Origin: an uncultured Candidatus Saccharibacteria bacterium
GTDB lineage: Bacteria > Patescibacteriota > UBA1384 > CAYGGE01
Reading direction: 5' to 3'
Assembly (NCBI GenBank): GCA_964349485.1
Contig: CAYGGE010000005.1
Span: forward strand, 3,483 to 67,482
Length of the DNA: 64,000 nt
Shown in pieces: positions 3,647-51,218 of the stretch; position 1 is the first letter of the stretch; every line of letters begins with the position of its first letter. Made by a program: the position numbers and the translations under genes. The notes beneath the pieces were generated by a model. The model did not search any database, was not told where the DNA came from, and saw nothing but the letters and a program-made list of their open reading frames with translations.

Positions 3647-5299
3647 TTATTTCTTCGCTTTTGCCTTCTCGTCTAACTCGGCTAACTTCTGATCGATCCG
3701 CTTTTCTGCATCACGTCGTTCTAAGCCAATCGACTCTTCCAGGTTGATGTAACGGATATATTTCGTTAATTCAGGATGAACTTTCTCAACTTCTTTATAC
3801 ATTTTTTGAACAATTCGTCGATAGTTTGGGTGCCCTTGAGGTGAAGTACGGAGTTCGCAGATGTGGACAAGCTCACGAAAGTTCATGGTGAAGTACCAGC
3901 GGATCCGGTGACCCTGGGGGATGAGGTACTGGGCTTGCAGAGGGAAATCCTCTTCGAACAGGGTATAGGCTTCGACGGCTTGTTGAATTGCTTGTCGGTA
4001 GCGGTCCGCAAAACCAGCCTCGATAATCTCATCGGGGACTGTTAGCCCGTAGTAAGGCGTCATGAGTTGGCGTTGCTGAGTGAGACTTCGATGGCGGTGC
4101 AAGTCGTAGAAAGCGGCGTAGTCACCGACGATGTCGAAGGTATAGAATGTATTCTCAAGCGCTCGACCAGGTTTATGGAAACGATTTTCACGATGTGAGA
4201 AATAGGCATCGAGAAGCTTCGTTCGATCGCTATTCTTCAGCTTTTTGGCCATGTTCTTGGCTTGGGTTAGCGAGAGGTGCGACTCACTAAAGAGCAGCGT
4301 TGAAACGATTTTTCGAATGGCTCGCTTGTCGTGTTCAACCAAGGTAACTCGTTCATCATCAATAAAGTCTGGTTCGGTCTCTGCAGTATATTTCTCAACC
4401 ACTTTTTGAACCGTGTGACGATTTTTACGAATAAATTCTATAGTTGGCTTCCCATAGCGTTCGTCGTTTGCCCGACGGACAAAAGAAGGGATAACTTTGG
4501 CTAATTCACGATACATCGCATCGCCCAAGGCTCGCGCCTCGACCATGTCACTTGCTAGAAGTTTGGTAATCATGTAGCGGAACGAACGACCGTTGCCATA
4601 GACACCGAAGTTAGCGTAGACTCCTAGCGGTAGAAGACCACGAATTGTGTCGCAGACCTTGGCTCGAATAGTACTGCCGTAGGCGCGATCAGTCTCGTCA
4701 GATTGCTTAGGGAAACGTTCTTCGAAGTAATTCTTCATCGGCTTGACTAGATCTTCATATGTGCCAAAAAGATTATCCATGGCCGCAATATATTTTTTGC
4801 CATGTCTCGATGCCTCAAGGTCGGGGTCGAGATAGTACAAGTATCGGTCGTTAATCTTCTTATCAAAGTAGACATAGCGGGTCGACTTCTCGAGTGGTGA
4901 TGCACCGATTCGACTATCTTGAACGAGTTTGGTAACCGGTCGAGAGATGAACTCACAAGCGATGTGGGCGCCGCCTAGCTCTTCAACTGAGTCATCGCCA
5001 AAGCCTACCAGAACACGGCTATAAAACTCCTCCGCCTTTTGGGTTGCAACCATCGCATCGTCGCCACTCTCAGTCGCAAAGTTTACGATCTCGGCGAGAC
5101 CCATCTCAGGTTGGCGAATAAACTCATCAAGTAAAACTCGACGCAGAGACTTATCCGTCCGCGAATAGCGAGAAAATAGCGCCCCCTTCACCACTTCAGG
5201 AAGATTCTTCAATACAAAAACCGTCCGATCCATGTTGGTGAAATAGGGCGAAAGAATCTTTATTTCTTCGTCAGTAAATTCTTCAGGCGCTCTATACAA
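3647..5299 (-). CDS. thyX: FAD-dependent thymidylate synthase ThyX, long tandem-duplicated (pseudo-dimeric) form
   Basis: C-terminal half carries the RHR signature (YDLHRHRSLTQQRQ). N-terminal half carries a degenerate copy (DSRIGASPLEKSTRY). The 550-aa length resembles long ThyX forms, and the gene sits between glyA and folD/tmk. Confidence 0.75.
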   Translation of the reverse strand: MYRAPEEFTDEEIKILSPYFTNMDRTVFVLKNLPEVVKGALFSRYSRTDKSLRRVLLDEFIRQPEMGLAEIVNFATESGDDAMVATQKAEEFYSRVLVGFGDDSVEELGGAHIACEFISRPVTKLVQDSRIGASPLEKSTRYVYFDKKINDRYLYYLDPDLEASRHGKKYIAAMDNLFGTYEDLVKPMKNYFEERFPKQSDETDRAYGSTIRAKVCDTIRGLLPLGVYANFGVYGNGRSFRYMITKLLASDMVEARALGDAMYRELAKVIPSFVRRANDERYGKPTIEFIRKNRHTVQKVVEKYTAETEPDFIDDERVTLVEHDKRAIRKIVSTLLFSESHLSLTQAKNMAKKLKNSDRTKLLDAYFSHRENRFHKPGRALENTFYTFDIVGDYAAFYDLHRHRSLTQQRQLMTPYYGLTVPDEIIEAGFADRYRQAIQQAVEAYTLFEEDFPLQAQYLIPQGHRIRWYFTMNFRELVHICELRTSPQGHPNYRRIVQKMYKEVEKVHPELTKYIRYINLEESIGLERRDAEKRIDQKLAELDEKAKAKK

Positions 5300-29218: not shown

Positions 29219-29662
29219 TTATTCCCAGATCAATTCGTTTTTTATTTCGCTAAAGAGCTTTTGGCCGATGCCTTTTACTTTCTGCAGGTCTTCTACTGAT
29301 TTGATTTGGCCTTCATCTCGCAGGACAGCAATATCCGCTGCTCGTTTTTCGCCGATACCTTTGAGCGTTTCAAGCTCTGTTGGGGTGGCAGTGCGGAGAT
29401 TGATCGGACCCTGGTTCGTTTTGGCTGAAACTGTACGAGTAGGATCAGCTGACGTATCTCTGGTTCCATGCTGATCAAGCACGGCTAGTTGGTTTCTGAT
29501 GATCGCATTGTCTGCGTTGTCGCCAGCTTCCGCACTAGGCTGAGTCTTCACAGTCAAATAGGTTAAACACAGACCAACCACTACCAAAAACACAATTGCA
29601 AAAGGGAAATACTTATCGAAGACGTGTTGACGGCTACGCCAAATGTTGTCTTGGTTCGTCAT
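29219..29662 (-). CDS. comEA: ComEA-like DNA-binding protein (N-terminal TM, C-terminal tandem helix-hairpin-helix)
   Basis: INLRTATPTELETLKGIGEKRAADI...LQKVKGIGQKLFSEI HhH motifs. Confidence 0.8.
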   Translation of the reverse strand: MTNQDNIWRSRQHVFDKYFPFAIVFLVVVGLCLTYLTVKTQPSAEAGDNADNAIIRNQLAVLDQHGTRDTSADPTRTVSAKTNQGPINLRTATPTELETLKGIGEKRAADIAVLRDEGQIKSVEDLQKVKGIGQKLFSEIKNELIWE

Positions 29663-31670
29663 CGGTCACCTTTGCTCGAAGCAACGGATATTTTTCCAGT
29701 CCGTCCTCGATGACTTGCGCCGCCATCTTTTTGGCACGCAGTATCATATCTATATCAGATAAACGGGCAATTTTCAAGCCGGATAGGCCAGATTGTTCGA
29801 GGCCAAGGAGCTGCCCTGGGCCACGTAATTCAAGATCCAACTCAGCAATGTCGAAGCCATTGTGTGTATCGGCAAAAGCCCGCAACCGCTCAAAGACGAC
29901 TGGATTTTGAGTATCGGTGAATACAAAACAGTACGATTGATGTCCGCCTCGGCCCACTCGACCGCGAAACTGGTGGAGTTGAGCCAGACCAAAACGGTCG
30001 GCGCCTTCGATCATCATGACGCTGGCGTTGGCTATATCGATCCCAACCTCGATAACTGCCGTTGAAACCAGAACGTCAACTTCATGTGCCCTGAATTGCC
30101 TCATGATCTCTTCCTTATCTTTTGACTTCATCTTACCGTGTAAAAGGGCAACGCGAAGATCGGGGAAGATGTATTTGCTGAGTTTTTCATATTCAGCCGT
30201 GGCGGCCTTCTTCTCGTCGAGTAGTATAGACAGCTGTCCGGTCGCTTCATAGGGACTGTCCTTAGCCTCAACTAAGGGACAAACTACAAATGCCTGACGA
30301 CCGGTTTGGATCTGTTTACGAATAAAGTCATAGGCCTGCCTACGGTGTGAAGGATCGACAAACTTGGTGGTAACCGGCTGTCTGCCTGGTACAGTCTGGA
30401 GGGCGGAGATATCCAGATCCCCATAGATCGTGAGTGCAAGAGTTCGAGGAATTGGGGTAGCGGTCATGGCTAGGAAGTGGGGGGTCAACTGCTGGTTTTC
30501 ACCTATGAGTTTGTTTCGTTGTTTTACCCCAAAACGATGCTGCTCATCGACGATAATCAAACCTAACTTTTCAAATGTCACTTTCTCTTGAATCAAGGCC
30601 TGAGTGCCGATGATTAGGTCGTACTCATTCACCTTAGCACCCATCGTTGAGCTAGTACTGCCTGTTAGCAGACTGACCTTCACCCCAAACGGTTCTAGAA
30701 ACGCTTGGCAGGTCTTGTAGTGTTGGTTGGCGAGAATTTCGGTGGGGGCCATCCAGACCGATCTATAACCGTTCTTGGCCATCACAAAAGAAGCTAGGGC
30801 GCCAACAACTGTTTTACCACTTCCGACATCACCCTCAACGAGACGGTTCATGGGGACATATTTTTCGATATCTTTAATGATGTCCCAACAAGCTTTACGT
30901 TGCGTATCAGTCAAGGTAAAGGGCAGTGAAGCGATGAAGGTTTTGACCTCTTCTATATTAGCTTTACAGTGAGGCGCTCGGTTCTTGCCCAAATCTTTTT
31001 TCGCAAGCTGAATGTTGGTTAGCAATATGAATAGCTCATCGAAAGCCAGACGTCGTTTTGCGACGCTGACTTGATCGATTGAGATAGGGGAGTGGATGAG
31101 CGAAAGAGCATCGGAAAGACTGATAAGATGTTCGCTAGTCCGGACGCCATCCGGAATATGATCCTCAAAGTTCAATATTAAATGTTTGAGCTCAGCAATT
31201 AATTTCCGAATCATTTTACTAGTAATACCGACAGTTTCGCCATAGACTGCAAGAATCTTTCCCTCGCGTTCTATTTCGGGCGACTGCATGGTTAGGTTGC
31301 CTTGATAATCCCGCTCAACCTTACCAGAAAATAACCAAGTTGTTCCATCCTTAAGCAATCGAATAAGGAACGGTTGATTAAAGAAGACTAAACCTATTTG
31401 GCCGGTTTTATCGGCTACCAGTACTCGAGTTAGCTTCATTCGTTTTTTATGAGATACCTCATTTTCGATATCGACAACTCGGCCTTGGATAATCTGTGAT
31501 TCACCCGGTACAATTTGATCAATGGTGCGAGGATTAGAAAAGTCTTCGTAGCGACGAGGATAGTAATGTAGCAAATCGTTGACTGTGTATAGGCCAAGGA
31601 TATTTAGTCGTTCGGCCACTTTCGGCCCCACCCCATATAGTTCCTCAATTGATGTATGCTCGTTTAACAT
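29634..31670 (-). CDS. recG: ATP-dependent DNA helicase RecG
   Basis: N-terminal wedge domain, GDVGSGKT Walker A and DEQHRFGV Walker B. Confidence 0.9.
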   Translation of the reverse strand: MLNEHTSIEELYGVGPKVAERLNILGLYTVNDLLHYYPRRYEDFSNPRTIDQIVPGESQIIQGRVVDIENEVSHKKRMKLTRVLVADKTGQIGLVFFNQPFLIRLLKDGTTWLFSGKVERDYQGNLTMQSPEIEREGKILAVYGETVGITSKMIRKLIAELKHLILNFEDHIPDGVRTSEHLISLSDALSLIHSPISIDQVSVAKRRLAFDELFILLTNIQLAKKDLGKNRAPHCKANIEEVKTFIASLPFTLTDTQRKACWDIIKDIEKYVPMNRLVEGDVGSGKTVVGALASFVMAKNGYRSVWMAPTEILANQHYKTCQAFLEPFGVKVSLLTGSTSSTMGAKVNEYDLIIGTQALIQEKVTFEKLGLIIVDEQHRFGVKQRNKLIGENQQLTPHFLAMTATPIPRTLALTIYGDLDISALQTVPGRQPVTTKFVDPSHRRQAYDFIRKQIQTGRQAFVVCPLVEAKDSPYEATGQLSILLDEKKAATAEYEKLSKYIFPDLRVALLHGKMKSKDKEEIMRQFRAHEVDVLVSTAVIEVGIDIANASVMMIEGADRFGLAQLHQFRGRVGRGGHQSYCFVFTDTQNPVVFERLRAFADTHNGFDIAELDLELRGPGQLLGLEQSGLSGLKIARLSDIDMILRAKKMAAQVIEDGLEKYPLLRAKVTDDEPRQHLA

Positions 31671-37059: not shown

Positions 37060-39234
<2,175 letters not shown>

Positions 39235-44326: not shown

Positions 44327-45502
44327 TTAACGATAATATATCATTGTGGAGTTTTCAGGGAATGTGGCTGGACATGCTCCGGTACTTTTGTAACTTAATT
44401 GCATCTTGGTGTCCGAGAGTACCTTGAAATATGCATACCCATTTGTACTTACCTCATGGCCGTATTGCGTCAGGTTGTAGCAATGCGAATCTGTGACTAG
44501 AGCCGGGTCTTTGTAGGTCTGATTCTTCTCACCGATAATATAGCGTTTTCGGTTGATCTCATACAGGATTAGCTCGTTCGCTGAGGTCTTGTAGATCGAG
44601 AACGGTGAAGCGTACTGCCCGTCATAGGCCTCTTGTACGCCATCTTGTGTCAGGTGCCACATGCCTGCAATACTACCTTTCACGTCTCGTGAATTACTAC
44701 CACAGTTTTTTGATTCGCCTGCTTTGTAGTGTCCCATGAGGGCGAGAAATTCTTGCCTAATGTTTTCCTCATAGTAGTCAAATGGACAGGCAGCATTGAC
44801 GAAACTATACCTATCTTTAAGCTTGTCATATCTCTCCTGGTTGACAAAAGTATTTGTCTTACTCTCGTCCCGTAGATAAATATTCCAGTTATGAGCTTCG
44901 TTAGTACCCGAAGTCTTGGCGACCAGATCCCCAGCTCTAAAGGCGAGTCGCCTGGTTGGCGACACATAGGCCGAGTTAACTGTTGGAGGGGTGACTGATT
45001 TGATTATCTCAGTAGCTTCAGAAATATGATCGAAGCTTAATTTTACACTCTCAGATATGCGGAACCCTAGGTGCCACTGTGGAGCGTTGGTGCCGTCGGC
45101 AAAGTACGAATAATCCTCAAGCGTCATGTCAACTGGAGCATATACTTCAATTGGTTCGGCATTTCTTTGGGCATCTGTCTTAATGTTGATCGTGATCCCA
45201 TTGATAGTCTGACTTTCAATGTAGCCACCGTTCAACTCACCAAGCGGTATAATGCTGTTCACTTTCGTTGGTTCAAATATTCGAGAAGTAAACCTAACTT
45301 TTTTTGACTCTCTTGATACTGCCTGACCCTGACTAGTGGGGCTAGTCTGAAAGCTTTTCCGATTACCTGGTAGATTCTGTCGACGTGTACTGATGAATAT
45401 CATAATAATAAGAATGAGTGCGGTTAGACTGAGTAACCAACGAAACCAATCCAAGGTCTGCGGATTTTTCCAAGCATGCAATTTGTTATATTCCGGTTCC
45501 AC
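44327..45502 (-). CDS. membrane-anchored protein with degenerate LytM/M23-like domain plus C-terminal Cys-containing domain (paralog 1)
   Basis: N-terminal TM. Motifs VYAPVD, LSFDHISE and FRAGDLVAKTSGTNEAHNWNIYL parallel the M23 HxxxD, xxHL and VxxGxxIGxxGxTGxxxxPHLHF blocks, with His to Tyr/Trp/Ile substitutions. Paralogous to 45506..46666 and 54874..55755. Confidence 0.6.
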   Translation of the reverse strand: MEPEYNKLHAWKNPQTLDWFRWLLSLTALILIIMIFISTRRQNLPGNRKSFQTSPTSQGQAVSRESKKVRFTSRIFEPTKVNSIIPLGELNGGYIESQTINGITINIKTDAQRNAEPIEVYAPVDMTLEDYSYFADGTNAPQWHLGFRISESVKLSFDHISEATEIIKSVTPPTVNSAYVSPTRRLAFRAGDLVAKTSGTNEAHNWNIYLRDESKTNTFVNQERYDKLKDRYSFVNAACPFDYYEENIRQEFLALMGHYKAGESKNCGSNSRDVKGSIAGMWHLTQDGVQEAYDGQYASPFSIYKTSANELILYEINRKRYIIGEKNQTYKDPALVTDSHCYNLTQYGHEVSTNGYAYFKVLSDTKMQLSYKSTGACPATFPENSTMIYYR

Positions 45503-45505
45503 GGT

Positions 45506-46666
45506 TCACCTCTCCCAAAATTCTATGTTACTCGACGGAAATGCTGTAGGACAGGTTCCAGTGCCTTTAACCACCAATAATCTAGTGTCTTCATCAAGCC
45601 TGAGGTACAGCCATTTATTTGCATCGGCGTAACAGATACTTGCTCCTTGTCTAATGCCCTCTGGCATGATTTTAGACTGATAATCTCTGATCGAGAAAAC
45701 ACCGAAACCGTTCTGTCTTAGGTTAATTTCAACCTTGCCATTTTGGTTGCCGATCTCTAACCAATTGCCATTTGTGTCCGAGGATTTGTCTTGAAACCAG
45801 CCGCCAGAGACAGTTCCGGCAACATCGTGTGAAGGATTGCCACAATCGACACTGGTGAGGGCCCGTCCATCATGCGCCCTCATAATGCTATAATATTTAG
45901 ATTTCAGCAAATCAGTATAGTAGTTATATGGACAATCTGCGGTTACGGTCTGTTCCCACCGCCAACGATTAGGGTTAATATGGGGAGCAGTTTTTGTTGA
46001 ATTGAGTAAGAACAAATCGAAAGAACCAGCTAGGTCGGTGCCGTTGCTGTAACCAACGAGCTCACCGGCCTTAACTGGAATCGAAACATATTTGAGATCG
46101 TTAGACCTATCCGACGGTGTAGTAGGAGCGTTGGGTTTAATCTTGTCACTGACCTCGTCCATGTGGTCGAAATTAAATGTAACTTCACAGCTAATCTGCA
46201 ACTCTAAGCGGTATTCCCCAGGTGCAGTCGGATTATTGGGATCGCGTTTGGCGAAAACAAGTGAAATGATTTTTGCATCAGTCGGCGCATAAAGTGGCGT
46301 CATAACACGATTCGAGGCATCACCTTTGACCATAACATATGCTCGCCCAGGCGATCCGGCAATGATCGCCCCTATCGGTGCGGTCTGTTTCAGATTGTCA
46401 AAGTCTGTAAATTCAGCAGTAAATACTGGCGTTGGATTACTCGTACAGTTCTTATTGTTTTTGGCAAGTTGGCTCTGATTACTGTGTGAAGCTTTGGTGC
46501 CACGGAACTGATTGACCGGTGGCCTTATTATGTATATTAATAACATGCCACTAAACAAAAATACTAACCACAACAATAGACTGACAGTAAACCGTTGTGG
46601 TAAGCGCCTTACCTGTTCGATCGATATCTTGTCCATCATCAGACTCGCTAAAGCTGGTACTCTCAT
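45506..46666 (-). CDS. membrane-anchored protein with degenerate LytM/M23-like domain plus C-terminal Cys-containing domain (paralog 2)
   Basis: LYAPTD, FNFDHMDE and VKAGELVGYSNGTDLAGSFDLFL. The C-terminal TGTCPTAFP matches paralog 1's TGACPATFP. Confidence 0.6.
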   Translation of the reverse strand: MRVPALASLMMDKISIEQVRRLPQRFTVSLLLWLVFLFSGMLLIYIIRPPVNQFRGTKASHSNQSQLAKNNKNCTSNPTPVFTAEFTDFDNLKQTAPIGAIIAGSPGRAYVMVKGDASNRVMTPLYAPTDAKIISLVFAKRDPNNPTAPGEYRLELQISCEVTFNFDHMDEVSDKIKPNAPTTPSDRSNDLKYVSIPVKAGELVGYSNGTDLAGSFDLFLLNSTKTAPHINPNRWRWEQTVTADCPYNYYTDLLKSKYYSIMRAHDGRALTSVDCGNPSHDVAGTVSGGWFQDKSSDTNGNWLEIGNQNGKVEINLRQNGFGVFSIRDYQSKIMPEGIRQGASICYADANKWLYLRLDEDTRLLVVKGTGTCPTAFPSSNIEFWER

Positions 46667-46823
46667 CTTAAGTCTACATCAAAACCACTGGTGTAGCCAG
46701 TCTAGTAGTTAGTCTAGCCACAGTCACCCAGACAGCGGGGTGCCACTTGTATCGGAGTGTCAGAAATGAACCTATCCCAAAAACTTGTTGGCATTTTCGT
46801 ATGTTCACGTTTATGATAGCCTC

Positions 46824-48638
46824 ATGCAGTATGCTGATGTAGCTTTGTCTGTTCGTACTAAAACTAGGCAAGATGTCTTTACGTATGCCATCCCGCCCGC
46901 TCTACTCGTCGATCTTTCGATCGGTCAGCGTGTTATTGTGCCGTTTGCCGGTCGGACGTTGACCGGTGTGGTGACGCAATTTCGTCTTAAGCCACCGAAA
47001 ACCGCGCGTGGAATAAAAGAGATTAAGCGCCTTGCGGAGCCATTTGCTTTGATCGACGAACAGACTATTGAGTTGGCTAGGGCTGTGGCGACTCGATATG
47101 CGGCAACGTTAGGCGACGTCTTAGCCTCGGCTCTCCCGAAACCAGCACCTCGAACGAGTAAAAAAATGATAATCCAATTCCCTGAAGCAAAAAAAACCAT
47201 TGCTCATGGTGGCATCTACGGGCTTTATGCTCCTCGCAGGCAACGGCTACAACAATATCTTTGGCTCATTACCAAGCTTATGGCCCAGGGCGAACAGGCA
47301 TTGGTGCTGTTTGTTAGTCATGAGAAGGCCATGACTTTTCAAGAGATATTAGCTACCCAAAGTATCGACTCATTATTATTGCCGCAGGCATCGGCGACAA
47401 GTGAAGCCTATAGCGCTTGGGTAAATGCCAGAGCTGGTCAGCACATTGTAGTAGTTGGGACCCGTAAAAGTATCTTCCTGCCGCTAGTTAAGGGTGGGGC
47501 GATCATTATAGATGAACCGAGCGAATTTGGGTATAAAGAAGAACAGTTTCCCTATTATCATGCAGTGACCGTTGCTAAGGCGCGAGCGGCGACTGAAGGT
47601 CTAACGGTTTTTCTTGGCGATGTAGCACCTCGTCTCGTTGAATGGCAGGAGATGCAGCAAAAAAAACTGACGGTGGTTCACCTGCCCAAGCTTCTTGCCC
47701 CTACGGTAACGCTTATTGATACTTCGAACTGTCGTGGCATTTTCAGTGAGGCGGTAATCGATCATATGCGGCGAACAATGCAAAACAATGGTAGGGTATG
47801 TCTGTTTTTTAATCGAAAAGGGAAAGGTCGTTTCTATCGATGTCTCGAATGTGAGGTGGCAATCTACTGTCCGCACTGTGATACCTTACTTCACGTTGAG
47901 TCAATTAGCAACGAGACGCGTTTAGTCTGTGCCCAGTGTGGCTACGAAATCAGCCCACCCTATCGATGCGAATCGTGTCAGAGCTATCGACTAGGTTCTG
48001 CTGGACTCGGAGTTGAGTCGTTTGCCAAGATTGTCAGCGAGCATTTTCCCGAGGCGAAAATTGCGACACTTTCGAAAGATGGTGATAATTTTGTCGAAGA
48101 AGCTGACATTGTCGTTGCGACTGCACAACTGTTTAGTCGATCACTGACCAAGCCGTACGATCTCCTAGTTGTATTTCGACTTGATCAGATACTTCATGGC
48201 TCTAGTTTCGATACAAATGAACAAGCCTATCTCTTGCTGAACCGCTTAGCTGAACGAGCTAAGCAGCTTCTGCTCCCAACAAGTGAACCCGATCACCAAG
48301 TCGTTCGAGCGTTTTGTGATGCCAATATGGCGGTATTTTACGCGAACGAACTGGCGATCAGAAAAAATGCCGGCTACCCGCCAGCTATTTCGTTTATCCG
48401 CCTCATGATTGCTGATACTGATAAAAACAAGGCTAATGCCGAAGCTACTAAGTTGTATGAACAATTACAGCTCACAATAATGCCCGATCATCTGATTCCG
48501 CCATCGCCAATTGGTAGTGGGAAACGTCGCGATAAATATCGGTACCAAGTGATAGTAAAAATCAAACTAACTGATGAGCTATTGAAAATGATCCCGTCTA
48601 ATTGGCAAGTCGATCCCGAGCCGGAAAATCTCAGTTAA
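46824..48638 (+). CDS. priA: primosomal protein N' (PriA) homolog with degenerate helicase motifs
   Basis: PriA N-terminus MQYADVALSV...FTYAIP and the Cys4-Cys4 zinc-binding region (CLECEVAIYCPHC...CAQCGYEISPPYRCESCQS). AQGEQALVLF aligns to PriA AQGKQALV. Walker A position reads YAPRRQRL, Walker B reads DEPSE, and motif III reads GDVAP. Confidence 0.75.
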   Translation: MQYADVALSVRTKTRQDVFTYAIPPALLVDLSIGQRVIVPFAGRTLTGVVTQFRLKPPKTARGIKEIKRLAEPFALIDEQTIELARAVATRYAATLGDVLASALPKPAPRTSKKMIIQFPEAKKTIAHGGIYGLYAPRRQRLQQYLWLITKLMAQGEQALVLFVSHEKAMTFQEILATQSIDSLLLPQASATSEAYSAWVNARAGQHIVVVGTRKSIFLPLVKGGAIIIDEPSEFGYKEEQFPYYHAVTVAKARAATEGLTVFLGDVAPRLVEWQEMQQKKLTVVHLPKLLAPTVTLIDTSNCRGIFSEAVIDHMRRTMQNNGRVCLFFNRKGKGRFYRCLECEVAIYCPHCDTLLHVESISNETRLVCAQCGYEISPPYRCESCQSYRLGSAGLGVESFAKIVSEHFPEAKIATLSKDGDNFVEEADIVVATAQLFSRSLTKPYDLLVVFRLDQILHGSSFDTNEQAYLLLNRLAERAKQLLLPTSEPDHQVVRAFCDANMAVFYANELAIRKNAGYPPAISFIRLMIADTDKNKANAEATKLYEQLQLTIMPDHLIPPSPIGSGKRRDKYRYQVIVKIKLTDELLKMIPSNWQVDPEPENLS

Positions 48639-48694: not shown

Positions 48695-49849
48695 GTGAAG
48701 ATTGGGATATTTACTGAGACATATGAACCAACCATCAATGGGGTTGTTGTTTCAATCAATACGTTTAAGAAAGAACTTGAGCGACAGGGTCACGAGTACT
48801 ACATTTTCTGTCCTTTCAACAAACATGCCAAAAGCGATCCGCCAAATGTATTTCGGTTTCCAGCAATTCATTTCCGCAACGATTTACTCTATCCTTTGGC
48901 TATTCCCATGCCGTTTGCATGGGTTAAGCAACAACTACCAATCGACATCATCAAGACTCTAGACATCATCCATGTTCAACATTTCGCCTTAATGGGTCAA
49001 TATGGCCTTAGACTGGCCAAAGCATACAATATTCCAAGTCTATATACATATCACACCATGGCAGAGCTTTATGTCGTCAATGCTCCCTGGATCGCACCTC
49101 TGGCCGAGCCAGCAATAAGGGCTTTGACTCGCTATACGGCACGACAGGCCAAGCACGTAATTACTCCCACTCAGTCAGTTAAGGACTATTTGCACACGAT
49201 TGGTATTCATAGGCCGATATCGGTGGTTCCGACAGGTATCGATGTAAATCAATACGGTCGGACGAATGGCCGGAGTCTACGCAACAAATATCGCATTCCG
49301 CATGACCATAAATTACTTCTTTACGTAGGTCGATTAGCGGCGGAAAAAAACGTACCATTTTTGTTGCAGGCGTTTAAGCAGGCTTTGCGCTTTGAACCTA
49401 AAACACATCTTATCTTAGTTGGCGGTGGGCCTGACAAGAGTCAGTTTGAGACGTGGGTAAAACAGAATAGACTTAAGAATGTCATTTTCACTGGCTTTGT
49501 AGCACATTCTGAGGTAAAAGAGCATTTTGGTTTGGCCGATATCTTTGTTTTTCCCTCGGTGAGTGATACTCAAGGTATTGTCATCCTTGAAGCCATGGCG
49601 GCCGGAGCAGTTCCAGTGGCGATCGATAGACTTGGTCCCCACGATCTCATCGACAATGGTCACAGTGGAGTCCTAATTGACTTGAATCTTGATGCTTTTT
49701 CTGGTACAATTATCGATCTATTACGTAATGATCGTAAAAGATTAGCTATGGCGAGAAATGCAGAGCGCCACGCCAATCGATATGACTATAAAGTAACAGC
49801 TAGACAGATGGAAGAAGTCTATCGTGAGTTAATTAAAAACGATGATTGA
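48695..49849 (+). CDS. glycosyltransferase family 4 (MGDG-synthase-like / GT-B)
   Basis: KIGIFTETYEPTINGV N-terminus and C-terminal E-x7-E region (ILEAMAAGAVPVA). GTG start at 48695 follows a GGGAGAGG RBS. Confidence 0.75.
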   Translation: MKIGIFTETYEPTINGVVVSINTFKKELERQGHEYYIFCPFNKHAKSDPPNVFRFPAIHFRNDLLYPLAIPMPFAWVKQQLPIDIIKTLDIIHVQHFALMGQYGLRLAKAYNIPSLYTYHTMAELYVVNAPWIAPLAEPAIRALTRYTARQAKHVITPTQSVKDYLHTIGIHRPISVVPTGIDVNQYGRTNGRSLRNKYRIPHDHKLLLYVGRLAAEKNVPFLLQAFKQALRFEPKTHLILVGGGPDKSQFETWVKQNRLKNVIFTGFVAHSEVKEHFGLADIFVFPSVSDTQGIVILEAMAAGAVPVAIDRLGPHDLIDNGHSGVLIDLNLDAFSGTIIDLLRNDRKRLAMARNAERHANRYDYKVTARQMEEVYRELIKNDD

Positions 49850-51218
49850 TAAGTCAACCAATACCAAGGTAGCCCTTGTTCCGGCACCCTCACTGCGTCA
49901 AAAAGCGAAGAAGGTGACCGTTTTTGATAATGCACTTAAGACAACGGCTGATACGATGCTTGAAACCATGCGATCGTATAAAGGTATGGGCTTGGCTGCA
50001 CCCCAGATTGATCAGTCAAAACAGCTGCTGGTGATTGAATATGTTCCCGAGGAGAAAGGTGAACAACCAATTCCGACGACTATCCTAGTTAATCCCAGTA
50101 TCACTGATTCCAGTAAGTCAACGGACTGGATGGACGAGGGCTGTTTGTCGATTCCTGGTGTTGAGTTACCTGTTAAGCGCTCAACTGCGATTAATGTCTT
50201 AGCACAAGATATATCTGGTAAGAGAATCAAGATTCGGGCCAAACAATTGTTTGCCCGCATTCTCCAACATGAGATAGATCATCTGAACGGGACATTGATC
50301 ACCGATCGAGCCTATCCAAACCTCGAACAGTTAGCTGGTAGCAGAATTATCTTCTTTGGTACACCGAATCATGCTACCTACTATCTGACTGCTCTCGCTG
50401 CAACCAAGGCAGAGATCGTTGCAGTAGTCACTGAAACCGACAAACCTGCCGGAAGAAATCAACAACTCACACCGCCTCCGGTGAAGGTTCATGCTGAACT
50501 AATGGGTCTACCCGTACTCCAATTCGAATCCCTGAAAACGAAAGAAGCCCAGCAAGCGATCGATAATCTGAAGGCTGATCTAGCTGTCGTTGTTGCTTAT
50601 GGTCAAATCATTCCCCAAACAGTTTTGGACATGCCCAAGCATGGCTTCTTGAATATTCATTATTCTTTACTCCCATCATACCGTGGCGCTACACCTCATC
50701 AATCGGCAATTCTAGCCGGAGAGAAAATCGCAGGTTACAGTATCTTCAAGCTAGATAGTGGCCTAGATACAGGTCCAATCCTCTCTCAAGGGAGCCTACC
50801 TATCGAGCCCGGCGATACCAGTCACACGTTGTTACAAAAACTTGTTCCGCCTTCCATTTGTACTCTTTTGGAAATGTTACCCGAGTATTTTTCAGGTAAG
50901 AAACAGTTAAAAGTGCAGGATGATAGTCAAGCAACCAATACCAAAGTTTTTACCAAAGAGGATGGCCGAATTGACTGGACGGATGAACCTACCGTTATAG
51001 ATCGTCAGATTCGGGCTTACTTCCCGTGGCCAGGAACATTTACAGAGATCAACGGTCAGCGTTTGTTGATTCATGCGGCTCATATCATTGATGACCGATT
51101 AGTAATCGATGTCGTTCAACCAGCCGGTAAACAGTCAATGAGCTTAGGTAGTTACCTACGTGGCAACCCTGCCGGGTTGACTTTCTTCTCGAGTATTGAT
51201 AGAGTAAAGCTTAACTAA
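49842..51218 (+). CDS. def-fmt: peptide deformylase - methionyl-tRNA formyltransferase fusion protein
   Basis: Def motifs GMGLAAPQ, EGCLS and QHEIDHLNG at residues 1-170, then Fmt RIIFFGTPNH...HYSLLPSYRG from residue ~185, in one continuous frame. Overlaps the upstream GT4 stop. Confidence 0.8.
   Translation: MIDKSTNTKVALVPAPSLRQKAKKVTVFDNALKTTADTMLETMRSYKGMGLAAPQIDQSKQLLVIEYVPEEKGEQPIPTTILVNPSITDSSKSTDWMDEGCLSIPGVELPVKRSTAINVLAQDISGKRIKIRAKQLFARILQHEIDHLNGTLITDRAYPNLEQLAGSRIIFFGTPNHATYYLTALAATKAEIVAVVTETDKPAGRNQQLTPPPVKVHAELMGLPVLQFESLKTKEAQQAIDNLKADLAVVVAYGQIIPQTVLDMPKHGFLNIHYSLLPSYRGATPHQSAILAGEKIAGYSIFKLDSGLDTGPILSQGSLPIEPGDTSHTLLQKLVPPSICTLLEMLPEYFSGKKQLKVQDDSQATNTKVFTKEDGRIDWTDEPTVIDRQIRAYFPWPGTFTEINGQRLLIHAAHIIDDRLVIDVVQPAGKQSMSLGSYLRGNPAGLTFFSSIDRVKLN

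What the first reader, a model, noticed from the sequence alone, without database searches (positions are those of the whole stretch)
46824..48638. PriA homolog with helicase ATPase motifs ablated
The protein keeps the PriA N-terminal 3'-DNA-binding region, the AQGEQALVLF block and the Cys4-Cys4 zinc-binding insertion. Where PriA has Walker A (GxxGSGKT) it reads YAPRRQRL. Where PriA has Walker B (DEEH) it reads DEPSE. Where PriA has motif III (SAT) it reads DVAP. This predicts a protein that cannot hydrolyse ATP or unwind DNA. It could still recognise forks or D-loops and recruit partners, acting as a scaffold-only restart factor. RecG in the same window (29634..31670) keeps all its motifs, so degenerate motifs are not a general feature of the helicases here.
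Basis: partly seen in the sequence, partly recalled or inferred. Interest (0 to 1): 0.6.

Follow-up and report, generated by a model that had tools for sequence, protein, structure and literature searches.

The report
ATPase-dead PriA restart protein in CPR
This gene encodes the bacterium's replication-restart protein PriA, still folded like a helicase but stripped of every ATP-burning motif; such a "pseudohelicase" is known from Deinococcus, and here it turns out to be conserved across a group of uncultured small-genome bacteria.

Summary
The ORF at 46824..48638 (+) encodes a 604-aa PriA ortholog. It has the PriA 3'-DNA-binding domain, the PriA C-terminal domain and eight invariant cysteines, and it passes the TIGR00595 cut-off. 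The predicted fold matches E. coli PriA (TM 0.86). It sits in a priA-def/fmt neighbourhood.

No GK[TS], DExH/D or GRxGR occurs anywhere in the protein, and motifs I, Ia, II, III, V and VI and the winged-helix domain are gone. This is not an error or decay. The DNA is identical in three other assemblies, and 18 orthologs down to 41% identity share the same substitutions and gene order.

The loss is also widespread. Of the 150 nearest cluster representatives, 127 lack the Walker A GK[TS]. Named relatives are Candidatus Berkelbacteria and Omnitrophota.

The DNA-contacting parts are the best conserved: the 3'BD, the aromatic-rich loop (GYKEEQFPYYH) and the Cys-rich region.

The most likely role is an ATP-independent fork-recognition and helicase-loading scaffold, like D. 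radiodurans PriA (Lopper 2015) and E. coli priA300 (K230R).

I class it as a new member of a known kind. Its degeneration is more extreme than the Deinococcus case, and I found no description of it for these lineages in the papers I could search. Interest is moderate.

The parts
46824..48638 (+). priA ortholog encoding a 604-aa PriA pseudohelicase.
   Evidence: The gene is nucleotide-identical in L007-L009. AF2 gives pLDDT 89.7, and Foldseek gives TM 0.86 to E. coli PriA 8fak_H.
46788..46817 (+). Promoter-like site TTGGCA-18-TATGAT. It ends 6 nt before the ATG, so the mRNA may be leaderless.
   Evidence: 10 of 12 consensus matches. This is a consensus match only, not evidence of function.
46824..47138 (+). 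3'-DNA-binding domain (aa 1-105). Y21, which aligns with E. coli Tyr18 of the 3'-end pocket, is invariant.
   Evidence: Pfam PF17764 E 3.9e-20. Together with the Cys-rich region it is the most conserved domain in the clade, with mean top-residue frequency 0.69. Pocket residues are from PMC5778457.
47139..47207 (+). Short variable linker (aa 106-128) in place of the winged-helix domain and the region upstream of motif I.
   Evidence: In alignment A1, canonical PriAs carry ~70-190 extra residues here. It is the least conserved segment, at 0.44, and the block of ten residues around 121-130 has pLDDT 68.
47220..47261 (+). Former Walker A (motif I), GLYAPRRQRLQQYL. The glycine-rich loop is gone, and the clade-invariant R141 aligns with the catalytic Lys (E. 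coli K230).
   Evidence: Among 145 ablated sequences, this column holds R in 93 and K in 24.
47502..47561 (+). Former Walker B plus the aromatic-rich loop, IIIDEPSEFGYKEEQFPYYH. D230 is invariant, EEH has become EPS, and the loop is almost invariant in the clade.
   Evidence: The loop's role at the fork junction is described in PMC5778457 and PMC10175261.
47616..47630 (+). Former motif III, where GSATP has become GDVAP.
47832..47999 (+). Cys-rich region (aa 337-392) with eight conserved cysteines, enough for two Zn sites.
   Evidence: The Cys columns are invariant or nearly so across 21 sequences that include canonical PriAs. It is the most conserved domain, at 0.72.
48243..48263 (+). Former motif VI, where QxxGRxGR has become NRLAERAK and the arginine fingers are lost.
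48324..48635 (+). PriA C-terminal domain (aa 501-604), with the conserved GKRRDKYRYQ and WQ-DPEP segments.
   Evidence: Pfam PF18074 scores 28 bits against a cut-off of 26.9.
48695..51218 (+). Downstream context conserved with priA: a GT4 glycosyltransferase (48695..49849) and a def-fmt fusion gene (49842..51218).
   Evidence: The same order is found in L001 (65% identity), L010 (41%) and Berkelbacteria L011. In Omnitrophota L012, priA is directly followed by fmt.
29634..31670 (-). RecG, used as a comparator, with all helicase motifs intact. It is a candidate provider of fork remodelling.

Best explanation
The gene is this organism's priA ortholog. The organism is an uncultured CPR/Patescibacteria bacterium related to Candidatus Berkelbacteria.

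The protein keeps the whole PriA scaffold except the winged-helix domain. That scaffold comprises the 3'-end-binding domain, two RecA-like lobes, the aromatic-rich loop, the two-zinc Cys-rich region and the C-terminal domain. It has lost every residue set needed to bind and hydrolyse ATP, so it cannot translocate or unwind DNA.

I infer the following mechanism:
- It recognises abandoned forks and D-loops through the 3'BD pocket, the aromatic-rich loop wedged at the junction, and the CRR/lobe 2/CTD channel around lagging-strand ssDNA.
- It then serves as an ATP-independent platform that recruits the replicative helicase, either directly or through an unidentified adaptor or loader.
- Any fork remodelling is left to other enzymes such as the intact RecG.

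Shown here: homology, fold, motif loss, conservation and synteny. Inferred: lack of ATPase activity (near certain from the sequence), DNA binding, and a role in restart.
For: PriA identity:
- Pfam 3'BD and CTD hits, and TIGR00595 above its cut-off.
- PDB PriA hits at E 2e-40.
- AF2 pLDDT 89.7 and pTM 0.88, with Foldseek TM 0.86 and rmsd 4.3 to E. coli PriA in the fork/PriB complex 8fak_H.
- The priA-def/fmt neighbourhood is conserved in L001, L010, L011 and L012.

Catalytic loss:
- No DEAD, Helicase_C or ResIII hit at E<=1.
- No GK[TS], DExH/D or GRxGR anywhere in the protein.
- The aligned motif columns are replaced.

Purifying selection:
- 18 intact orthologs at 41-65% identity share the same substitutions.
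- Against L001, dN is 0.28 while dS is saturated.
- The 3'BD, CRR and aromatic-rich loop are the most conserved parts.

Precedent:
- D. radiodurans PriA has Arg at the Walker A Lys position, has no ATPase or unwinding activity, binds ssDNA and forks, and binds DnaB (PMC4504706).
- E. coli K230R and K230A support PriA-PriB restart and DnaB loading (PMC5778457; PMC10175261).
- R141 here aligns with that lysine and is invariant in the clade.
Against: No biochemistry exists for this protein or its clade.

No partner gene (dnaB, dciA, dnaC/I, priB, dnaT, dnaD) was among the window ORFs scanned against Pfam. The rest of the genome could not be searched.

The winged-helix domain, which contacts parental duplex in E. 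coli, is missing, so fork specificity may differ.

Asp17 of the E. coli 3'-end pocket is Thr here. The same change is seen in one canonical PriA in the alignment (P0021).

A second, canonical priA elsewhere in the genome cannot be excluded.
Confidence: 0.7

Rival explanations
1. The gene is a decaying pseudogene or an assembly or sequencing artefact. The motif loss would then reflect relaxed selection on a gene that no longer works, or errors in this contig.
For: All catalytic motifs are lost. The linker that replaces the WH domain is poorly conserved.
Against: The open frame is intact at 604 aa and nucleotide-identical in three other assemblies. Eighteen full-length orthologs down to 41% identity show the same architecture and strongly conserved blocks. 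dS is saturated at dN 0.28. The model is confident and PriA-like. Synteny is conserved.
Confidence: 0.02
2. The protein is a cryptic enzyme that still binds or hydrolyses a nucleotide with non-canonical residues. Candidates are the conserved R141/D230 pair or the GSGKRR segment in the CTD. It would then translocate or switch conformation in a nucleotide-dependent way.
For: A basic residue is kept at the Walker A Lys column in 117 of 145 ablated sequences, and the first Walker B Asp in 103 of 145. A second, weaker nucleotide site has been proposed for E. coli PriA but never located (PMC5778457).
Against: There is no glycine-rich P-loop. The catalytic Glu/His of motif II is replaced by Pro-Ser. 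Motif III and both arginines of motif VI are gone. K230R alone abolishes ATPase in E. coli PriA, and D. radiodurans PriA, which has Arg at that position, has no measurable ATPase (PMC4504706). GSGKRR aligns with a canonical CTD strand, not with a RecA-fold P-loop.
Confidence: 0.05
3. The protein is a neofunctionalised PriA derivative. It would still bind branched DNA but no longer load the replicative helicase. Possible new roles include fork protection, blocking of illegitimate restart, or a regulatory or structural DNA-binding role. Restart would then be carried out by something else.
For: The WH domain is lost and Asp17 has changed to Thr in the 3'-end pocket. No primosome partner was identified. 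The clade has its own strongly conserved signature, PSEYGYKEEQFPYYH.
Against: The gene occupies the orthologous priA locus next to def/fmt. All known partner and DNA surfaces (CRR, CTD, aromatic-rich loop, 3'BD) are the most conserved parts. The experimentally studied pseudohelicase retains fork and DnaB binding (PMC4504706). No other PriA-like gene was seen on any fetched contig.
Confidence: 0.15

Closest known systems
Deinococcus radiodurans / Deinococcus-Thermus PriA pseudohelicase (Lopper, Boone & Morrow 2015, PMC4504706)
   Same: Both are PriA orthologs with defective Walker A and Walker B. Both have Arg at the position of the catalytic Walker A lysine; here that is R141, invariant in the clade. 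In both, DNA-binding architecture is retained. The organisms have no evident priB or dnaT: this was shown for D. radiodurans, but here it was checked only in the scanned ORFs of the window.
   Different: Here the whole glycine-rich loop is gone, not only the lysine. Motifs Ia, III, V and VI and the WH domain are also gone. Lopper et al. describe poor matches only for motifs I and II. That suggests independent loss, but I made no direct comparison because I had no Deinococcus sequence. No biochemistry exists for this protein.
E. coli PriA K230R (priA300) and K230A variants
   Same: Both are ATPase- and helicase-dead PriA proteins that still assemble the primosome and support PriA-PriB restart and DnaB loading (PMC5778457, PMC10175261). 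They serve as the functional model for a scaffold-only PriA.
   Different: These are engineered point mutants in a full-length 732-aa protein. They have a WH domain, intact other motifs, and the known partners PriB, DnaT and DnaC. They are defective in the PriA-PriC pathway, which needs helicase activity.
Canonical PriA helicase (TIGR00595; structures 4NL4, 6DGD, 8FAK)
   Same: Domain order is 3'BD, RecA lobe 1 with the aromatic-rich loop, RecA lobe 2 with the inserted two-zinc CRR, then the CTD. The predicted fold has TM 0.86 to 8fak_H. The gene lies in the priA-def/fmt neighbourhood.
   Different: There are no SF2 catalytic motifs and no WH domain, and the protein is about 130 aa shorter. 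The model fits the fork-bound 'pore' conformation (8FAK, TM 0.86) better than the apo crystal forms (TM 0.72-0.73).
Short, motif-ablated PriA homologs of Candidatus Berkelbacteria and Omnitrophota (database entries named 'primosomal protein N''; P0276, P0282, P0292, L003-L006)
   Same: They have the same length class (~600-625 aa) and the same loss of motifs I, III and VI, with R or K at the former lysine column. They share the KEEQ-x-P-Y/H-Y loop. The Berkelbacteria locus L011 has the same priA-GT4...def-fmt order.
   Different: They are only 26-45% identical to the window protein. A rough NJ tree splits them into at least two groups. I found no paper that notes their motif loss, and the source names give no hint of it.

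Membership tests
PriA (primosomal protein N' / replication restart protein PriA) | N-terminal 3'-DNA-binding domain | tested here: met
   PF17764 covers residues 6-105 with E 3.9e-20. Y21, which aligns with E. coli Tyr18, is invariant.
PriA (primosomal protein N' / replication restart protein PriA) | Cys-rich region with eight cysteines (two Zn sites) inserted in helicase lobe 2 | tested here: met
   All eight Cys align with those of canonical PriAs and are invariant or nearly so. The PF18319 model itself did not hit this protein at E<=1.
PriA (primosomal protein N' / replication restart protein PriA) | PriA C-terminal domain | tested here: met
   PF18074 scores 28.0 bits against a cut-off of 26.9. 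This is a marginal pass, but the region is aligned and conserved.
PriA (primosomal protein N' / replication restart protein PriA) | Overall fold with two RecA-like lobes as in solved PriA structures | tested here: met
   AF2 gives pLDDT 89.7. Foldseek gives E 1.2e-42 and TM 0.86 to 8fak_H, and the next family (Mfd) has TM <=0.40.
PriA (primosomal protein N' / replication restart protein PriA) | Curated equivalog score (TIGR00595) | tested here: met
   The score is 238.2 bits against a cut-off of 230.35, a narrow pass. All the PRK05580 and PRK14873 equivalog models score far below their cut-offs.
PriA (primosomal protein N' / replication restart protein PriA) | SF2 helicase motifs I (GxGKT), II (DExH), III (SAT) and VI (QxxGRxGR) | tested here: not met
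   There is no Pfam DEAD, Helicase_C or ResIII hit at E<=1. No such motif occurs anywhere in the protein. The aligned columns are replaced. The protein is therefore a PriA homolog and ortholog, but not a PriA helicase.
PriA (primosomal protein N' / replication restart protein PriA) | Winged-helix DNA-binding domain between the 3'BD and the helicase core | tested here: not met
   A 23-residue variable linker takes its place. Some motif-intact short PriAs (P0037, P0113) also lack it, so it is not universal in the family.
PriA pseudohelicase (Deinococcus-Thermus type, Lopper 2015) | Walker A catalytic Lys replaced (K to R) and a poor Walker B | tested here: met
   R141 aligns with the GKT lysine and is invariant in 18 orthologs. 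DEEH has become DEPS.
PriA pseudohelicase (Deinococcus-Thermus type, Lopper 2015) | No ATP hydrolysis and no duplex unwinding | not testable with these tools
   This is predicted from the complete motif loss. It needs purified protein.
PriA pseudohelicase (Deinococcus-Thermus type, Lopper 2015) | Retained ssDNA and fork binding, and interaction with the cognate DnaB | not testable with these tools
   The only evidence is indirect. The 3'BD, aromatic-rich loop, CRR and CTD are the most conserved parts.
PriA pseudohelicase (Deinococcus-Thermus type, Lopper 2015) | Common descent with the Deinococcus-Thermus PriA clade | not tested
   No Deinococcus or Thermus sequence was available. The named hits nearest to the clade are Spirosoma, Terracidiphilus, Luteitalea, Pseudoalteromonas and similar, not Deinococcus-Thermus. 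That suggests independent loss.

The most novel reading that the evidence does not exclude
A winged-helix-less PriA without ATPase is the rule in large parts of uncultured bacterial diversity (Berkelbacteria-like CPR lineages, Omnitrophota and others), and it arose more than once. In these lineages PriA would be held in the fork-bound 'pore' conformation. A conserved Arg (at the former Walker A Lys) and Asp (the first Walker B Asp) would fill the dead ATP site. The protein would load DnaB without PriB, DnaT or ATP. Helicase-independent restart would then be a major natural mode rather than a Deinococcus oddity, and this would be a minimal natural PriA for dissecting restart.
Probability: 0.35. 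Interest if true: 0.6.

Novelty: new member of a known kind. Interest (0 to 1): 0.42.

Why it matters
[quoted passage not shown] This window and its relatives suggest that the exception is much broader and more radical. Whole clades of small-genome uncultured bacteria keep PriA under purifying selection after deleting every ATPase motif and the WH domain.

This supports the view that PriA's essential job is fork recognition and helicase loading, not unwinding. It also offers a naturally minimal ~600-aa PriA for structural and biochemical work. It raises the question of which partner or loader these organisms use.

There is also a practical point. Databases name these proteins 'primosomal protein N'' or 'superfamily II helicase', and that implies an activity they almost certainly lack.

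Tried and rejected
- **First genome-contig scan.** A scan with the single protein found nothing. The second scan, with the clade alignment, gave only 6 loci, so taxonomy rests on a few record titles and source names.
- **Cluster names.** The listing of cluster members returned no names.
- **Other fold library.** The afdb50 fold library was unavailable.
- **dN/dS.** It could not be computed against the nearest ortholog, because dS is saturated.
- **Model coordinates.** They are not exposed to scripts, so I could not measure whether R141 and D230 form an ion pair or what fills the former ATP pocket.
- **Partner genes.** I scanned the larger ORFs of the window against Pfam for primosome partners and used the precomputed annotation for the genes next to priA. 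I found none. The scan did not cover every ORF in the window.
- **GSGKRR at 564.** I considered it as a displaced P-loop and rejected it, because it aligns with a canonical CTD strand.
- **Upstream TTG at 46785.** I considered it as the start and rejected it in favour of ATG 46824, because the MQY N-terminus is invariant.
- **Pseudogene or sequencing error.** Both were considered and rejected (see the rival explanations).
- **Literature.** Searches for PriA in CPR, Patescibacteria, Berkelbacteria or Omnitrophota found nothing relevant.
- **Recalled but unverified.** From memory, UniProt flags some actinobacterial PriAs as lacking detectable helicase domains. I could not check this with the tools.
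Full report
**What is there.** The window carries one long ORF at 46785/46824..48638 on the + strand. The 604-aa product hits Pfam PriA_3primeBD (residues 6-105, E 3.9e-20) and PriA_C (524-590, just above cut-off). It gives no hit to DEAD, Helicase_C or ResIII even at E<=1. NCBIfam TIGR00595 (priA) is passed narrowly, at 238.2 against 230.35 bits, while the PRK05580 and PRK14873 models fall far below their cut-offs. The best solved relatives are K. pneumoniae and E. coli PriA (E 2e-40).

**The motif claims.** The HMMER alignment to 4NL4 and MAFFT alignments with canonical PriAs agree on the following:
- Walker A GxxGSGKTEVY aligns with YAPRRQRLQQY.
- Walker B DEEH aligns with DEPS(E).
- Motif III GSATP aligns with GDVAP.
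- Motif VI QxxGRxGR aligns with NRLAERA.
- Motifs Ia and V are degenerate.
- The ~70-190-residue winged-helix segment between the 3'BD and lobe 1 is replaced by a 23-residue variable linker.

A regex scan finds no GK[TS], DExH/D or GRxGR anywhere in the protein. The only look-alike, GSGKRR at 564, lies in the C-terminal domain and aligns with the canonical CTD segment that ends in the YR-x-Q strand. All eight CRR cysteines align with those of canonical PriAs. RecG (29634..31670, on the minus strand) has GKT, DEQH, TAT and QFRGRVGR plus DEAD and Helicase_C hits. Motif loss is therefore specific to PriA.

**Not an artefact and not decay.** The gene is nucleotide-identical in three contigs assembled from other samples. 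A homolog search finds a tight clade of 19 proteins, ~600-607 aa and 41-100% identical (one is a 422-aa fragment). Their precomputed Pfam content is again only 3'BD and CTD. In the 18-sequence alignment the former motif positions carry shared replacements:
- D-x-PSEYGYKEEQFPYYH, with D230, K238, E240, Q241, P243, Y244 and Y245 invariant.
- G-D-x-A-P-R-L.
- L-A-E-R-A/T.

R141, the residue aligned with the Walker A lysine, is invariant. By domain, the 3'BD (0.69) and the CRR (0.72) are the most conserved, and the linker (0.44) is the least. Against the 65%-identical ortholog, dN is 0.28 while dS is saturated.

**Fold.** AlphaFold2 gives a confident model (pLDDT 89.7, pTM 0.88). Its best PDB match is E. 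coli PriA in the PriA/PriB/fork cryo-EM complex (8fak_H, TM 0.86, rmsd 4.3). The fit to apo crystal forms is poorer (TM 0.72-0.73, rmsd >9). Other SF2 proteins such as Mfd are far behind. In 8FAK the CRR has pivoted to form a pore around lagging-strand ssDNA and to expose the partner-docking surface (PMC10175261). The resemblance is a hint, not proof, that this protein favours that state.

**Who carries it and how widespread it is.** Record titles place the nearest genomes in CPR: an uncultured Candidatus Berkelbacteria MAG at 65% and a MAG labelled Saccharibacteria at 50%. More distant relatives at 26-29% come from Omnitrophota and a MAG labelled Nitrospirae. Translating those loci shows that they too lack the motifs.

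An exhaustive profile search of 1.84 billion representatives gave 8,973 hits below 1e-30. Among the 150 best, 127 lack GK[TS] at the Walker A position, and 111 lack all four motifs that were scored. Their median length is 617 aa, against 680 aa for the 23 intact ones. This sample is biased toward the query's own kind. Intermediates exist. Some keep GKT but have lost motif VI, and 13 keep DExH but have lost GKT.

A rough NJ tree that excluded the motif columns separates an Omnitrophota-like ablated group from a CPR group containing this clade. It needs about 4 state changes. Several independent, stepwise losses are therefore likely, although the tree is weak.

Across 145 ablated sequences, the Walker A lysine column holds Arg in 93 and Lys in 24, and the first Walker B Asp is kept in 103. 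Named database entries for such proteins (Berkelbacteria P0276 and P0282, Omnitrophota P0292) are simply called 'primosomal protein N''.

**Context.** The order priA, GT4 glycosyltransferase, def-fmt fusion, rpsP, KH protein, trmD is conserved in the 65% and 41% orthologs (L001, L010). In Berkelbacteria L011 it is conserved with an insertion. In Omnitrophota L012, priA is directly followed by fmt. From my own knowledge, priA-def-fmt linkage is classical, for example in Bacillus subtilis. This supports orthology with bona fide priA. The ORFs of the window that were scanned against Pfam, or that carry precomputed annotation, include housekeeping genes such as gyrB/gyrA, clpB, ATP synthase, thyX, glyA and thrS. 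No dnaB, dciA, dnaC/I, dnaD, priB or dnaT was recognised among them.

**Mechanism.** Without a P-loop, a catalytic Glu/His, motif III or the arginine fingers, ATP hydrolysis and translocation are effectively excluded. K230R alone kills E. coli PriA ATPase, and D. radiodurans PriA, which has Arg at that position, has no measurable ATPase or unwinding activity (PMC4504706).

What is retained and most constrained are the elements that contact the fork in 8FAK:
- the 3'BD pocket;
- the aromatic-rich loop wedged at the junction;
- the CRR, lobe 2 and CTD that form the ssDNA pore;
- the partner-binding CRR surface.

The best explanation is therefore an ATP-independent fork or D-loop recognition scaffold that recruits the replicative helicase, with remodelling left to RecG or other enzymes. 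ATPase-dead E. coli PriA supports PriA-PriB restart in vivo and DnaB loading in vitro. D. radiodurans PriA binds forks and DnaB.

My confidence that the protein is catalytically dead is about 0.9. My confidence that it still works in restart is about 0.65-0.7.

**Comparison and novelty.** The kind, a PriA pseudohelicase, has been published since 2015. A 2017 review treats Deinococcus as the only exception to helicase conservation.

This case differs in three ways:
- **Degree.** All motifs and the WH domain are lost, against the Walker A and B defects described for Deinococcus-Thermus.
- **Lineage.** It belongs to CPR, with similar cases in Omnitrophota.
- **Apparent breadth.**

My searches of the held literature found no description of it for these lineages.

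I file it as a new member of a known kind, of moderate interest. The broader reading, that helicase-free PriA is a major natural mode with multiple origins, is not excluded and would be more interesting.

Noticed in passing
window 49842..51218 (+); also L001 11008..12393, L010 11010..12377, L011 15610..16956: Peptide deformylase and methionyl-tRNA formyltransferase are fused into one 448-461-aa ORF (Pep_deformylase + Formyl_trans_N/C). The fusion is conserved across this clade and Berkelbacteria. The Omnitrophota locus L012 has a stand-alone fmt.
   Followed up: partly
window 46788..46817 (+): A promoter-like TTGGCA-18-TATGAT site ends 6 nt before the priA ATG, and no Shine-Dalgarno sequence is evident. 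The priA mRNA may be leaderless.
   Followed up: no
window 44327..45502 (-) and 45506..46666 (-): Two adjacent ~390-aa ORFs with no Pfam hit lie upstream of priA and are transcribed divergently from it. They look like paralogs, with a hydrophobic N-terminal segment and a similar C-terminal Cys-containing region. Their function is unknown.
   Followed up: no
window 3647..5299 (-): The ThyX ORF is unusually long at 550 aa, with two Thy1-matching stretches. This suggests an internal duplication or an N-terminal extension.
   Followed up: no
L010 553..3954 versus window 37066..39234: In the 41%-identity relative, GyrB carries an intein (1133 aa, Intein_splicing hit). The window's GyrB (722 aa) does not.
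   Followed up: no
window 48695..49849 (+); L001, L010, L011: A GT4 glycosyltransferase is consistently wedged between priA and def-fmt in this clade and in Berkelbacteria. This is an unusual conserved neighbour for priA.
   Followed up: partly
window 47244..47246 (R141) and 47511..47513 (D230); alignment of 145 ablated PriAs: The P-loop is gone, but the column of the Walker A lysine is Arg in 93 and Lys in 24 of 145 ablated homologs, and the first Walker B Asp is kept in 103. This may be a structural ion pair filling the dead ATP site.
   Followed up: partly
window 46687..46735 (priA upstream intergenic): The divergent promoter region contains a short inverted repeat (ACTGGTGTAGCCAGT) followed by two direct AGTCTAG copies. 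This could be an operator. It was not tested against chance.
   Followed up: no
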